From a bacterium (GTDB taxonomy: Bacteria; Patescibacteriota; Minisyncoccia; UBA6257; WO2-44-18): a stretch of 64,000 bases of DNA. The notes below the pieces were generated by a model. The model was not told the origin of the DNA and did no database searches. It saw only the letters and a program-made list of their open reading frames with translations. Made by a program: the position numbers and the translations under genes. The stretch is from positions 76,092 through 140,091 of the forward strand of contig JAUSKF010000002.1 of NCBI GenBank assembly GCA_030646995.1, read 5' to 3'. Every line of letters begins with the position of its first letter. Within the stretch, counting starts at the first letter, position 1. Below are positions 51,258 through 55,649 of this stretch, piece by piece.

Positions 51258-51466
51258 GTGCCGCGGGAGGGAATCGCCTACAACTCTCGCCTCGCCGTCG
51301 CTCGGTTCGGTCGCAGGCCGCCCCTCGCGACCCCGCAAGCTTGCGGGGTATCGCTGCGTTCTTCAATATCCCTACGCGAGCCAAACAATTGGCTCGCTCC
51401 CGCCGCTACAAACAAAAAATAAAGCGCCTTTTCGTGGCGCTTTATTTTTCTGTTGTGCCGCGGGAG
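51258..51466 (-). ncRNA. GC-rich multi-hairpin segment ending (minus strand) in a 17-nt duplicate of the tRNA 3' end plus templated CCA (ATTCCCTCCCGCGGCAC-CA)
   Basis: Closed by a 12-bp helix 51262-51273 / 51395-51406; internal perfect hairpins ACCCCGCAAGCTTGCGGGGT and GCGAGCCAAACAATTGGCTCGC; terminators on both sides. Confidence 0.45.
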
Positions 51467-51761
51467 GGAATTGAACCCCCGACGCCAGCCTCTTCCAAAG
51501 GCTAGTTGGACTATCTCATTCCCGTTCTTAAAAACTTAAGAGTGCGGGATCGGGCGCTATTGCAGGATTATTGTTGGGACTCACCTGCTAGTCTCTACAC
51601 CTTCCAGAAAACTTAAACCCTTTCTGGCTCGGCTCGGGATTGTCGTATGCATATTTTACTATACATCCGGTTTTCCCCGAATTCACCCAATTTTTCGATC
51701 CGCATTACTACGGAAGGCCCCAAAGATCTAGGGCTGCGCTCTACCACTGAGCTACCGCGGC
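51467..51761 (-). tRNA. tRNA (inferred Phe, anticodon GAA) interrupted by a group I intron after U33; CCA not encoded
   Basis: Exons fold as canonical cloverleaf (acceptor GCCGCGG/CCGCGGC, D arm TAGCTCAGTGGTAGAGC, T arm GGGGGTTCAATTCCCTC, A73). Spliced anticodon loop is CU|GAAGA. Confidence 0.6.
51507..51729 (-). ncRNA. group I self-splicing intron (223 nt) in the tRNA anticodon loop
   Basis: P1 pairs 5' exon GCCCU with intron GGGGC (U.G at splice site); final nucleotide is G; P/Q/R/S-like elements GAATTCGGGGAAAA, CAATCCCGAGCC, GTAGAGACTAGCAGG, GAGATAGTCCAAC (P7 GACTA/TAGTC). Confidence 0.65.
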
Positions 51762-51764
51762 ATA

Positions 51765-52481
51765 CTAACTAAAATTGTGGTTCTTAACGCCATCTATCCA
51801 GCCAATTATGCGATGGAATAGCTTGGTATCACTTATTCTAACCTGCAAAACCCCATAAGGCAAGCGATTAAATGGCCTCTTTCCCATACTGGATTTACTA
51901 ATTCCAAGATAGGTTTTATTAAAGTTCTCCCTGGGAATACCGGTTGTCTTAACCCAATACTTCAGGGTCGCCTCAGCATTCATATGTTGAAAAATTCTTA
52001 AATTGGCTTTTATTTTCTCGACCGGTACTTTACAAATCTTTTTAATAAACGCCAAGAAGACATTGATTAAAACCGGATCAGCATTAGTAAGACTAATGGG
52101 GTGATATGTGACTTCCCTTCCACCTCTCACAATCGGCCGCTTATACCCCTCCGCCCAGTACAACGCCAAACCGATAAAAAATAGATTCTGAATAGAGATA
52201 TTTGCAATCTCGCCGTGCGCTAATTTCTGGATTTCTTCTTTTCTTTGCAGAGCCAAATGAGTTTGATTTTTATTTCTTTTCAAAAGGCCTTCCAACGATT
52301 TTTGTTTGGACCGATTCTCAATTTTTTCCCTTGCACTCGCGGATAAAACTATGTTTTTCAACCATAGCGACAAAGTAGACTTAGAAATACCAGGCAAGGT
52401 TTTCTGGATTTCGCTATAACTCTTGCCCTGCAACCGTAGCTTAATGGCCGAGAATTTATCATTACGCATTATATATATCAT
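51765..52481 (-). CDS. HTH + LAGLIDADG-like domain protein; candidate free-standing homing endonuclease ending 4 nt from the intron-containing tRNA
   Basis: N-terminal HTH KSYSEIQKTLPGISKSTLSLWLKN; motif FIGLALYWAEGYK resembles a LAGLIDADG helix ending in E-G. Confidence 0.3.
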   Translation of the reverse strand: MIYIMRNDKFSAIKLRLQGKSYSEIQKTLPGISKSTLSLWLKNIVLSASAREKIENRSKQKSLEGLLKRNKNQTHLALQRKEEIQKLAHGEIANISIQNLFFIGLALYWAEGYKRPIVRGGREVTYHPISLTNADPVLINVFLAFIKKICKVPVEKIKANLRIFQHMNAEATLKYWVKTTGIPRENFNKTYLGISKSSMGKRPFNRLPYGVLQVRISDTKLFHRIIGWIDGVKNHNFS

Positions 52482-55411: not shown

Positions 55412-55484
55412 GGTCTCATCGTCTAGTTGGTCAGGACATACGGTTCTCATCCGTAAAACATGGGTTCGAATCCCATTGGGACCA
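55412..55484 (+). tRNA. tRNA-Glu (anticodon CUC), CCA not encoded
   Basis: Cloverleaf with acceptor GGTCTCA/TGGGACC, D arm TCGTCTAGTTGGTCAGGAC, loop TTCTCAT, T arm ATGGGTTCGAATCCCAT. Confidence 0.8.
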
Positions 55485-55649
55485 CAAAACTCAAAATAAA
55501 TCTGGGATTCGAACCCAGCAGCACACCGTGTTGGAAGGCGCTCGGAAACCAGAAGGTGTCCGAGACGGGGGTCGGGGTGCTGCGATAGTGGTTCGGCAAA
55601 CATTAGGCGGCAGCCTCAATGCGCAGCGAAAATCCCATTGGGACCACCA
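55485..55649 (+). ncRNA. structured GC-rich segment ending in a 17-nt duplicate of the tRNA-Glu 3' end plus templated CCA (AATCCCATTGGGACCAC-CA)
   Basis: 7-bp helix GCAGCAC/GTGCTGC enclosing hairpin CTCGGA..TCCGAG; T-arm-like TGGGATTCGAACCCA on the opposite strand. Confidence 0.45.

What the first reader, a model, noticed from the sequence alone, without database searches (positions are those of the whole stretch)
51467..51761. tRNA (probably Phe-GAA) split by a 223-nt group I intron inserted after U33
The exons 51730-51761 and 51467-51506 (minus strand) assemble into a canonical 73-nt cloverleaf. It has a perfect 7-bp acceptor stem, G18G19, a TTCAATT T-loop and A73. The intervening 223 nt have group I hallmarks. 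A 5-bp P1 has the U.G wobble exactly at the 5' splice site (exon GCCCU paired to intron GGGGC). The terminal nucleotide is G. There are P-like GAATTCGGGGAAAA, Q-like ATCCCGAG, R-like AGAGACTAGCAGG and S-like GAGATAGTCC elements, giving the universal P7 core GACTA/TAGTC. Bacterial tRNA group I introns are known for Leu-UAA, fMet, Ile and Arg, always within the anticodon loop but at other positions. A Phe-GAA insertion between nucleotides 33 and 34 would be an unusual site and host tRNA. The anticodon assignment depends on my splice-site choice.
Basis: partly seen in the sequence, partly recalled or inferred. Interest (0 to 1): 0.72.

Follow-up and report, generated by a model that had tools for sequence, protein, structure and literature searches.

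The report
Group I intron splitting tRNA-Phe gene
A phenylalanine tRNA gene really is interrupted in its anticodon loop by a self-splicing-type (group I) intron, but this intron/tRNA combination has already been described and is common in ultra-small Patescibacteria, so the find is genuine yet ordinary.

Summary
On the minus strand, 51761-51456 encodes tRNA-Phe(GAA), split between U33 and G34 by a 234-nt group I intron (51729-51496).

ARAGORN in intron mode calls this exact gene. Rfam Intron_gpI matches over its full length (41.4 bits, E 2.7e-9), but that is below the gathering score of 50. One internal guide, UCUUU-GGGGC, pairs with both exon ends, forming P1 with a U.G wobble and P10. I aligned 96 distinct homologous tRNA-Phe introns; 92% of the proposed pairs form, against 36-50% in slid controls, with many compensatory changes.

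The novelty claim fails. The classical tRNA-fMet intron also sits at 33/34. A "Phe.2Ug" intron that is 80% identical to this one is in the seed alignment of Williams 2020. Phe(GAA) 33/34 is listed in a 2026 Patescibacteria survey. One capped genome scan returned 57 such loci.

One side lead may be new. The 238-aa ORF ending 3 nt upstream has an HTH domain and a LAGLIDADG-like fold. Its homologues lie next to tRNA-Phe in 64 of 65 assessable metagenome loci.

The parts
51730..51761 (-). tRNA-Phe 5' exon, nt 1-33: acceptor 5' strand, D arm, anticodon stem 5' strand CAGCC, then C32 and U33. The last 5 nt (GCCCU, 51734-51730) form the exon strand of P1.
   Evidence: ARAGORN -i; sequence
51496..51729 (-). 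Group I intron, 234 nt, with no ORF. It starts AGAUCUUU and ends UUUG; the terminal (omega) G is at 51496.
   Evidence: ARAGORN -i; Rfam RF00028 41.4 bits, E 2.7e-9, model 1-253; 80% identical to the Williams 2020 seed Mba55.Phe.2Ug
51456..51495 (-). tRNA-Phe 3' exon: G34 A35 A36 G37 A38, anticodon stem 3' strand GGCUG, variable loop GCGUC, T arm, acceptor 3' strand and A73. CCA is not encoded; the next bases are CAACAG.
51717..51726 (-). Internal guide sequence 5'-UCUUU GGGGC-3'. GGGGC (51721-51717) pairs with exon GCCCU to form P1, with U33.G at the 5' splice site. UCUUU (51726-51722) pairs with 3' exon GAAGA (51495-51491) to form P10.
   Evidence: Across 96 homologues the guide tracks the exon sequence: GGACU:GGUCC, GGAUU:GAUCC, GCCCU:GGGGC, GGCCU:GGGCC; GAAAA:UUUUC versus GAAGA:UCUUU.
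51699..51714 (-). P2 hairpin UCCGUA-GUAA-UGCGGA, closed by a GNRA tetraloop.
   Evidence: helix 3: 97.4% of cells paired, and all 6 pairs show compensatory changes.
51684..51690 (-). P3 5' strand UUGGGUG. It pairs with 51556-51550 (CGCCCGA).
   Evidence: helix 4: 99.3% paired; the two outer pairs alternate between U-A and C-G.
51634..51680 (-). P4 (UCGGGG 51680-51675 with UCCCGA 51639-51634), enclosing P5 (51674-51640). The J3/4 junction AAU lies just upstream.
   Evidence: helix 5: 99.8% paired and nearly invariant.
51599..51633 (-). P6 (GCC/GGU) and the P6a hairpin (CCAGAAA...UUUCUGG).
   Evidence: helices 7 and 8: 98.6% and 96.3% paired; all 7 P6a pairs show compensatory changes.
51589..51595 (-). 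P7 5' strand G-A-GACUA, including the bulged A. It pairs with 51513-51508 (UAGUCC). P7 is the guanosine-binding helix.
   Evidence: helix 9: 99.4% paired; these positions are invariant across the family.
51562..51588 (-). P7.1-type hairpin GCAGG-[UGAGUCCCAACAAUAAU]-CCUGC, inserted between P7 and the P3 3' strand. The 17-nt loop is highly conserved.
   Evidence: helix 10: all 5 pairs covary.
51550..51556 (-). P3 3' strand CGCCCGA.
   Evidence: helix 4
51520..51549 (-). P8 hairpin UCCCG...CGGGA.
   Evidence: helix 11: all 5 pairs covary.
51508..51519 (-). J8/7 (AUGAGA) and the P7 3' strand UAGUCC.
   Evidence: invariant columns
51496..51507 (-). Short 3' tail AACUAGCCUUUG, with no P9 hairpin. 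Its CUAGCC(UUU) can pair with the 3' exon (AGA)GGCUGG, which is the 3' strand of the anticodon stem. The Rfam model aligned this intron-exon helix as P9.
   Evidence: Of the 96 family introns, 34 have a short tail. Their mean best tail-exon helix is 6.0 bp, against 4.8 +/- 0.2 with exons permuted, and the pairing changes in step with the exon (UAGCC/GGCUG, UAUCC/GGAUG, CGCUC/GAGCG).
51413..51447 (-). Terminator-like hairpin AAAUAAAGCGCC-ACGAAAA-GGCGCUUUAUUU followed by a U run, starting 9 nt after the tRNA.
   Evidence: Sequence. It matches the 3' hairpin of sraL. The consensus terminator scan did not list it.
51765..52481 (-). 238-aa ORF whose stop codon ends 3 nt before tRNA position 1. It has an N-terminal homeodomain-like HTH, a long helix, and a C-terminal LAGLIDADG-like domain carrying the motif GLALYWAEGYK. 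It is linked to tRNA-Phe, but its function is not established.
   Evidence: domains and fold. Linkage.

Best explanation
The locus is a tRNA-Phe(GAA) gene whose anticodon loop is interrupted between U33 and G34 by a 234-nt group I intron with no ORF. It belongs to the class already described as 'Phe.2Ug' or 'Phe(GAA) 33/34', which is widespread in Patescibacteria.

Inferred mechanism (standard group I chemistry, not assayed here):
1. In the precursor, the internal guide 5'-UCUUUGGGGC-3' pulls exon nucleotides G29-U33 out of the anticodon stem to form P1, with the U33.G wobble marking the 5' splice site.
2. An exogenous guanosine bound in P7 attacks that site.
3. The terminal G (51496) then occupies the same pocket.
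4. P10 (UCUUU with GAAGA) aligns the 3' exon, and the freed U33 3'-OH attacks. This ligates CU|GAAGA and restores the 7-nt anticodon loop.

This copy has no P9 hairpin. Its 12-nt 3' tail instead pairs with the 3' strand of the anticodon stem, so the intron holds both strands of that stem until ligation (inferred).

The gene is probably transcribed together with, or from inside, the upstream ORF, and it ends at a hairpin terminator (inferred).
For: - ARAGORN in intron mode calls tRNA-Phe(gaa), 73 nt, with a 234-nt intron and the junction 'gccct-Intron-gaaga'.
- Rfam RF00028 matches over the whole model (1-253) at 41.4 bits, E 2.7e-9, and aligns P1-P9.
- P1 and P10 are both formed by one contiguous guide. 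Across 96 distinct homologues the guide changes in step with the exons.
- The hand-drawn P1-P10 structure was counted on the 96-sequence alignment A2. 92.4% of cells form standard pairs, against 36-50% when the 3' partners are slid. There are 964 cells with compensatory changes against 282 +/- 25 in shuffles, with 0 of 500 shuffles reaching the observed value on any measure. P2, P3, P6a, P7.1 and P8 covary; P4, P6 and P7 are nearly invariant.
- The window copy carries every family-invariant core position.
- It is 80% identical to Mba55.Phe.2Ug in the Williams 2020 seed alignment.
- Phe(GAA) 33/34 is listed in PMC13011429 Table 1.
Against: - No splicing assay or RNA-seq read covers this locus, so catalysis is inferred from conservation.
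- The Rfam score of 41.4 bits is below the gathering cut-off of 50, so the default Rfam scan of the window reports nothing.
- Only 64 kb of the genome is available, so a second, uninterrupted tRNA-Phe elsewhere cannot be excluded.
- P1 and P10 score lower in the MAFFT-based count (79% and 77% paired), because MAFFT misaligns the variable 5' end.
- The structure counted was drawn from the window sequence, which inflates the percentage paired relative to the slid controls.
Confidence: 0.93

Rival explanations
1. The intron is a group I ribozyme that depends on a protein. The adjacent HTH plus LAGLIDADG-like protein would act as its maturase, binding the intron RNA to stabilise the P9-less core.
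For: - The ORF ends 3 nt before the tRNA.
- Homologues flank 31 of 49 assessable intron-bearing tRNA-Phe loci.
- This copy lacks P9.
Against: - 18 of 49 assessable intron-bearing tRNA-Phe loci have no such ORF within the locus.
- 15 of 64 ORF-linked tRNA-Phe genes have no intron at all.
- Related ORF-less Patescibacteria IA introns self-splice in vitro without protein (PMC13011429).
Confidence: 0.1
2. The intron is a decaying, non-splicing relic and the interrupted tRNA-Phe is a pseudogene. The cell would use another tRNA-Phe copy.
For: The Rfam score is below the gathering cut-off. There is no P9 hairpin. The rest of the genome was not available.
Against: - Every helix is intact, and all family-invariant core nucleotides, P1, P10, U-1 and the terminal G are retained.
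- The P9-less form is shared by 34 of 96 relatives, including the Williams 2020 seed sequence.
- The exons form a flawless cloverleaf.
- Patescibacteria typically carry a single tRNA-Phe. The two genome rows visible from the supplementary table of PMC13011429 both show 1 under Phe.
Confidence: 0.04
3. The resemblance is a chance one: two tRNA-like halves happen to flank an unrelated structured region.
For: Default ARAGORN and default Rfam report nothing at this locus.
Against: E is 2.7e-9 against RF00028. The core motif is expected 0.00 times by chance. There are 95 further distinct homologues with covariation.
Confidence: 0.005

Closest known systems
'Phe.2Ug' tRNA introns (Williams 2020, bioRxiv 10.1101/2020.01.27.920355; seed Mba55.Phe.2Ug), also listed as 'Phe (GAA) 33/34' in PMC13011429 (mSystems 2026)
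   Same: Same host tRNA, same insertion site, and U-1 with a terminal G. The guide is identical (UCUUUGGGGC). The P3, P4, P6 and P7 strands are identical, as is the conserved P7.1 loop. Both have the short P9-less tail. Overall identity is 80%.
   Different: It is a different genome. P2, P5, P6a and P8 differ by compensatory substitutions and length changes. There is no difference in kind.
Cyanobacterial tRNA-fMet(CAU) group I intron (classical 'fMet.2Ug')
   Same: It is inserted at the same position, between nt 33 and 34 of the anticodon loop, with U33 as the -1 nucleotide.
   Different: The host tRNA differs. It is assigned to subgroup IC3 and some copies encode a PD-(D/E)XK endonuclease. 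The present intron has an IA-type P7.1 and no ORF.
[quoted passage not shown]
   Same: They share the core motif GAAUUCGGGGAAA...AAUCCCGAGC...GUAGAGACUA, which retrieved 29 Asn introns in the same scan. They come from the same phylum, are assigned to subgroup IA, and self-splicing has been shown experimentally for that group.
   Different: The insertion site (35/36) and host tRNAs differ. Some Asn copies carry HNH endonuclease genes.
Azoarcus tRNA-Ile and Anabaena tRNA-Leu(UAA) IC3 introns
   Same: They are small ORF-less self-splicing introns in bacterial tRNA anticodon loops. P1 is built from anticodon-stem nucleotides, and P10 aligns the 3' exon (established knowledge).
   Different: The sites are 36/37 and 34/35. 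They are IC3, with P9 and P9.0 and no P7.1.
Free-standing homing endonuclease next to an ORF-less intron ('collaborative homing': F-CphI with cyanophage psbA, mobE with T4 nrdB); WhiA as a domesticated LAGLIDADG plus HTH protein
   Different: The known cases are in phages and use HNH- or Endo VII-type enzymes. Here the host is a cellular tRNA cluster, no cleavage site is known, and the ORF also flanks intron-less tRNA-Phe genes.

Membership tests
Group I intron (Rfam RF00028) | P1 helix formed by the 5' exon end and an internal guide, with a U.G wobble at the 5' splice site | tested here: met
   Exon GCCCU (51734-51730) pairs with GGGGC (51721-51717), giving U33.G. The guide covaries with the exon in the homologues.
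Group I intron (Rfam RF00028) | Terminal (omega) G, and P10 pairing of the 3' exon with the guide | tested here: met
   G51496 precedes GAAGA. UCUUU/GAAGA gives 5 of 5 pairs, and it switches to UUUUC/GAAAA in relatives with A37.
Group I intron (Rfam RF00028) | Conserved core: the P4-P6 domain and the P3-P8 domain, with the P3/P7 pseudoknot and the P7 G-binding helix with its bulged A | tested here: met
   Full-length model alignment. Pair counts on 96 sequences: P3 99.3%, P4 99.8%, P6 98.6%, P7 99.4%, with covariation in P2, P3, P6a and P8.
Group I intron (Rfam RF00028) | Score at or above Rfam's gathering cut-off of 50 bits. This is a curation threshold, not a biological feature. | tested here: not met
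   The score is 41.4 bits, E 2.7e-9. Williams 2020 notes that none of the 12 Rfam seed sequences was bacterial, and used a threshold of about 18-20 bits for tRNA introns.
Group I intron (Rfam RF00028) | Guanosine-dependent self-splicing | not testable with these tools
   This needs an in vitro transcript with GTP and Mg2+, or RNA-seq.
tRNA-Phe(GAA) 33/34 intron class ('Phe.2Ug') | The spliced exons form a tRNA with anticodon GAA and Phe-type features (A73, 5-nt variable loop) | tested here: met
   ARAGORN -i calls tRNA-Phe(gaa). Isotype-specific scoring with tRNAscan-SE was not available.
tRNA-Phe(GAA) 33/34 intron class ('Phe.2Ug') | Insertion between nt 33 and 34, with U-1 and a terminal G | tested here: met
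   This is the only U-1 / terminal-G combination that restores a 7-nt loop (my reading of the sequence).
tRNA-Phe(GAA) 33/34 intron class ('Phe.2Ug') | Sequence homology to described members | tested here: met
   80% identity to Mba55.Phe.2Ug, and 73-78% identity to the closest 20 relatives among the 57 genome loci.
Subgroup IA group I introns | Extra P7.1/P7.2 element between P7 and the P3 3' strand | tested here: met
   The hairpin at 51588-51562 covaries at all 5 pairs (helix 10). A sister variant in the family has two hairpins at this position.
Subgroup IA group I introns | Best score with a subgroup-specific covariance model | not tested
   Subgroup models are not available here. PMC13011429 reports that nearly all Patescibacteria tRNA introns are IA.
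LAGLIDADG homing endonuclease / maturase (for the neighbouring ORF 51765-52481) | LAGLIDADG alpha-beta-beta-alpha-beta-beta-alpha fold | tested here: inconclusive
LAGLIDADG homing endonuclease / maturase (for the neighbouring ORF 51765-52481) | LAGLIDADG motif with a conserved acidic residue at the end of the first helix | tested here: inconclusive
   GLALYWAEGYK lies at the end of helix 96-110, and E110 and G111 are invariant in 43 homologues. I aligned it to the canonical motif by eye only.
LAGLIDADG homing endonuclease / maturase (for the neighbouring ORF 51765-52481) | Site-specific DNA cleavage or intron RNA binding | not testable with these tools
   This needs biochemistry.

The most novel reading that the evidence does not exclude
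The conserved HTH plus LAGLIDADG-like gene that abuts the tRNA could be a free-standing homing endonuclease, or a derivative of one. Its homing site would be the tRNA-Phe gene, and it would move or persist together with the ORF-less intron. That would be 'collaborative homing' in a cellular tRNA cluster rather than in a phage. It would explain how ORF-less tRNA-Phe introns spread and persist in Patescibacteria, whereas the published survey (PMC13011429) inferred limited mobility because so few tRNA introns carry endonuclease genes inside them. A second, smaller novelty would be that the P9-less intron uses the 3' strand of the anticodon stem as a surrogate P9 partner.
Probability: 0.25. Interest if true: 0.55.

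Novelty: new member of a known kind. Interest (0 to 1): 0.27.

Why it matters
For annotation: this is very probably the genome's tRNA-Phe gene, and default tools miss it. ARAGORN without intron mode and Rfam at its gathering threshold both return nothing, so the MAG would look as if it lacks tRNA-Phe.

Biologically it adds one more instance to a class that is already catalogued, so on its own it changes little.

The part worth following is the neighbour. In a sample drawn without reference to the intron, an HTH plus LAGLIDADG-like gene sits within 250 nt of tRNA-Phe in 64 of 65 assessable loci. If it is an active or domesticated homing endonuclease, it would bear on how ORF-less tRNA introns are kept or spread in reduced genomes.

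Tried and rejected
- Default ARAGORN and Rfam at gathering thresholds found nothing at the locus. Intron mode and an E-value threshold were needed.
- A BLAST of the locus against phage records found no match.
- I considered alternative splice sites. U33 is the only U in the last 12 nt of the 5' exon. Shifting the 3' site by one nucleotide gives a 6-nt loop. A CUAGAU|...G|A reading would give an A34 'Ser' anticodon in a class I tRNA body. All were rejected in favour of CU|GAAGA, which is also the only choice with both P1 and P10.
- I considered tRNA-Leu(UAA), the classical intron host, and rejected it because the variable loop is only 5 nt.
- An exact look-up of the NCBI-annotated 234-aa form of the ORF found no contig. 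The 238-aa form found only a 3.8-kb Logan contig that stops just before the tRNA.
- Profile and sequence searches of the ORF against PDB sequences matched only the HTH, weakly. Foldseek against the PDB gave no significant match. The afdb50 library was not available.
- The table of intron types in Williams 2020 is an image, and Table S5 of PMC13011429 was cut when stored. I could therefore not read published counts for the Phe class.
- I did not establish the host phylum directly. The source record says only 'bacterium'. Patescibacteria is inferred from the nearest tRNA, intron and ORF relatives.

Full report
**What is in the sequence**

Read on the minus strand, 51761-51730 is GCCGCGG UA GCUC AGUGGUA GAGC G CAGCC CU. 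That is a tRNA 5' half ending at U33. 51495-51456 is GAAGA GGCUG GCGUC GGGGG UUCAAUU CCCUC CCGCGGC A, a tRNA 3' half from G34 to A73. Between them lie 234 nt, 51729-51496.

ARAGORN without intron search finds nothing here. With intron search it reports tRNA-Phe(gaa), 73 nt, with 'Intron Length: 234' and 'gccct-Intron-gaaga'. Its 3' exon coordinates (51506-51467) are shifted by 11 nt, so it gave 223 nt instead of 234 and its interval cuts off the end of the acceptor stem.

**Is it a group I intron?**

At gathering thresholds Rfam reports only tRNA-Glu (55412-55484) in the window. With an E-value threshold on 51380-51840, RF00028 Intron_gpI matches 51739-51486 on the minus strand over the whole model (1-253). 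The score is 41.4 bits, E 2.7e-9, below the 50-bit gathering score. Williams 2020 explains why bacterial tRNA introns score low: none of the 12 Rfam seeds was bacterial, and he worked at about 18-20 bits.

One contiguous guide, 5'-UCUUU GGGGC-3' (51726-51717), pairs with both exon ends. GGGGC pairs with exon GCCCU, giving U33.G at the splice site (P1). UCUUU pairs with 3' exon GAAGA (P10, 5 of 5 pairs). This fixes the splice sites. No other U-1 / terminal-G choice restores a 7-nt anticodon loop.

**Relatives and covariation**

The core motif GAATTCGGGGAAA-N-AATCCCGAGC-N-GTAGAGACTA occurs once in the window and is expected 0.00 times by chance. ARAGORN -i placed 117 of the 120 motifs inside split tRNAs. 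Of these, 57 are tRNA-Phe(GAA) at this site, 29 are Asn(GUU) and 16 are Thr(UGU).

Adding metagenome loci gave 96 distinct Phe introns with U-1, a terminal G and GAA. I aligned them as A2. I drew P1-P10 from the window sequence and counted the pairs.
- 92.4% of cells pair, against 36-50% when the 3' partners are slid by 1-3 columns.
- 964 cells carry changes on both sides, against 282 +/- 25 in shuffles. None of 500 shuffles reaches the observed value on any measure.
- P2, P3, P6a, P7.1 and P8 covary. P4, P6 and P7 are almost invariant.
- P1 and P10 score lower in this count because MAFFT misaligns the variable 5' end.

The check, which does not depend on alignment register, shows the guide following the exon: GGACU:GGUCC, GGAUU:GAUCC, GCCCU:GGGGC, GGCCU:GGGCC and UGCCU:GGGCA. 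P10 switches from UUUUC (with GAAAA, A37) to UCUUU or UCUUC (with GAAGA, G37). This is a conserved and almost certainly functional ribozyme. Catalysis itself is inferred.

**Anatomy particular to this copy**

A covarying hairpin with a conserved 17-nt loop sits between P7 and the P3 3' strand (51588-51562). This is a P7.1-type element, as found in subgroup IA. PMC13011429 classifies nearly all Patescibacteria tRNA introns as IA. I did not run subgroup models.

After P7 there are only 12 nt (AACUAGCCUUUG) and no P9 hairpin. 34 of the 96 family members share this short tail, and so does the published seed sequence. In these copies the tail is complementary to the 3' strand of the anticodon stem. 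In the window, CUAGCCUUU pairs with AGAGGCUGG. The mean best helix is 6.0 bp, against 4.8 +/- 0.2 with exons permuted. The pairing changes in step with the exon: UAGCC/GGCUG, UAUCC/GGAUG, CGCUC/GAGCG and UCACGC/GCGUGG. Rfam aligned this intron-exon helix as P9. The longest version of the helix overlaps P10 by three nucleotides, so only the inner roughly 5 bp can coexist with P10. That last point is inference.

**Comparison with what is known**

Neither is.
- Williams 2020 names the classical fMet intron 'fMet.2Ug', where position 2 means 33/34, and expands the four classical types to 21.
- His seed alignment contains 'Mba55.Phe.2Ug'. I aligned it to the window intron: 191 of 239 positions are identical (80%), with the same guide, core strands, P7.1 loop and short tail.
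- PMC13011429 (mSystems 2026) states that 33/34 is the common fMet site. Its Table 1 lists 'Phe (GAA) 33/34', detected by all three methods compared. It also shows in vitro self-splicing for related IA introns.

Together with the more than 100 loci found here, this makes the locus a new member of a described and common class.

**Host and context**

The neighbours are chromosomal housekeeping genes: tgt, tsaC, a pseudouridine synthase, a B12-dependent ribonucleotide reductase, malate synthase A and a phosphoglucose/phosphomannose isomerase. The source record says only 'bacterium' (MDO8466740.1, a 162-kb contig). The closest exons (92-94% identical), introns (74-78%) and ORF homologues (52-57%) come from Patescibacteria/Paceibacterota MAGs. 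The host phylum is therefore inferred, not shown. CCA is not encoded. A hairpin followed by a U run lies 9 nt after the tRNA.

**A side lead: the neighbouring ORF**

The 238-aa ORF at 51765-52481 (minus strand) has its stop codon 3 nt before tRNA position 1. Pfam sees only an N-terminal homeodomain-like HTH (HTH_23, E 2.4e-5; HTH_SB, HTH_28 and similar models across members).

- *Against the fold call.* Z stays below 8. Foldseek against the PDB has no significant hit. No LAGLIDADG Pfam model matches.
- *Linkage from the ORF side.* I took 80 metagenome loci chosen only for encoding a homologue. In 64 of them a tRNA-Phe lies within 250 nt: 49 carry the intron and 15 do not. In 15 of the other 16 a contig end is too close to judge.
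- *Linkage from the intron side.* Of 49 assessable intron-bearing tRNA-Phe loci, 31 have the ORF adjacent and 18 do not. No Asn or Thr intron locus has it. The one apparent exception, L034, is called tRNA-Val(aac) by ARAGORN. I suspect that is a miscalled tRNA-Phe but did not check it.
- *Arrangement.* The ORF lies either upstream or downstream of the tRNA, usually on the same strand, inside tRNA gene clusters.
- *What the pattern fits.* The ORF is almost always beside tRNA-Phe, while the intron often occurs without it. That fits a free-standing homing endonuclease or a domesticated descendant (compare collaborative homing, PMC3984707, and WhiA) better than an obligatory maturase. The intron-less neighbours and the uniformly intact reading frames argue against a simple selfish-element cycle.
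- *Prior description.* Three of my full-text searches were relevant, and none turned up a description of this gene.

I report this as an open lead, not a finding.

**Verdict**

The claim of an unusual site and host is wrong. The locus is an ordinary member of the known tRNA-Phe(GAA) 33/34 group I intron class. Its practical importance is for annotation, since default tools miss it.

Noticed in passing
window 51765-52481 (-); homologues in L016, L034, L086, L101, L116 and L122-L201: A 238-aa ORF with an HTH domain and a LAGLIDADG-like fold ends 3 nt before the tRNA. Its homologues lie within 250 nt of tRNA-Phe(GAA) in 64 of 80 metagenome loci; 49 of those tRNAs carry the intron and 15 do not. 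15 of the remaining 16 loci are contig-edge cases. In the other direction, 18 of 49 assessable intron-bearing tRNA-Phe loci lack the ORF. It may be a free-standing homing endonuclease or a domesticated derivative. I found no description of it in the literature searched.
   Followed up: partly
window 51496-51507 with 51484-51493 (-); also L041, L099, L108, L135, L150, L161: This intron and 33 of its 95 relatives lack a P9 hairpin. Their short 3' tail instead pairs with the 3' strand of the anticodon stem in the 3' exon, and the pairing changes in step with the exon (UAGCC/GGCUG versus UAUCC/GGAUG). The mean helix is 6.0 bp, against 4.8 in permuted controls.
   Followed up: partly
window 51492 (-), tRNA position 37; alignment A2: The mature tRNA-Phe would have G37 (loop CUGAAGA), not the A37 usual in bacterial tRNA-Phe (my own knowledge). 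The family splits into a G37 group and an A37 group (CUGAAAA), and the P10 part of the guide changes accordingly (UCUUU versus UUUUC). The intron-less tRNA-Phe genes next to the ORF also have G37.
   Followed up: partly
alignment A2 columns 226-275 (window 51588-51562): The family has two alternative elements between P7 and the P3 3' strand. One is a single hairpin with a nearly invariant 17-nt loop, UGAGUCCCAACAAUAAU, as in the window. The other is a pair of hairpins beginning UCCC-GNRA-GGGA. The function of the conserved loop is unknown.
   Followed up: no
L034, L122, L127, L139, L144, L167: In related loci ARAGORN's intron mode calls what may be the same kind of split tRNA-Phe as Val(aac), Ser(gga), Phe(aaa), Pro(agg) or Leu(taa), probably by misplacing the intron boundary or choosing the wrong stem partner. 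I did not verify these calls. Its boundary is also shifted by 1-2 nt wherever the intron starts with G.
   Followed up: no
L006, L010, L040, L059, L083, L105, L112 (labelled Gammaproteobacteria); L022, L082 (labelled Bdellovibrionales); L110 (labelled Nitrospirota): MAGs labelled as non-Patescibacteria carry tRNA-Phe exons and introns that are identical or nearly identical to those of Patescibacteria MAGs. For example, L006 and L105 have the same exons as L051 (Falkowbacteria). This points to either mislabelled bins or horizontal transfer.
   Followed up: no
L198:183-707: One tRNA-Phe(GAA) intron next to an ORF homologue is 451 nt long, about twice the family norm of 195-271 nt. I did not check whether it carries an insertion or an ORF.
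   Followed up: no
window 51805-51863 (-): Two sigma-70-like promoter matches (TTGCCT-17-TAGAAT and GTGATA-16-CATAAT) lie inside the 3' end of the ORF, 45-100 nt upstream of the tRNA. The tRNA could therefore be transcribed on its own or together with the ORF.
   Followed up: no
window 55412-55485 (+): This uninterrupted tRNA-Glu(CUC) is the only other tRNA in the 64-kb window. Many related loci instead place tRNA-Phe inside dense tRNA clusters (Val, Leu, Gly, Pro, Arg).
   Followed up: no
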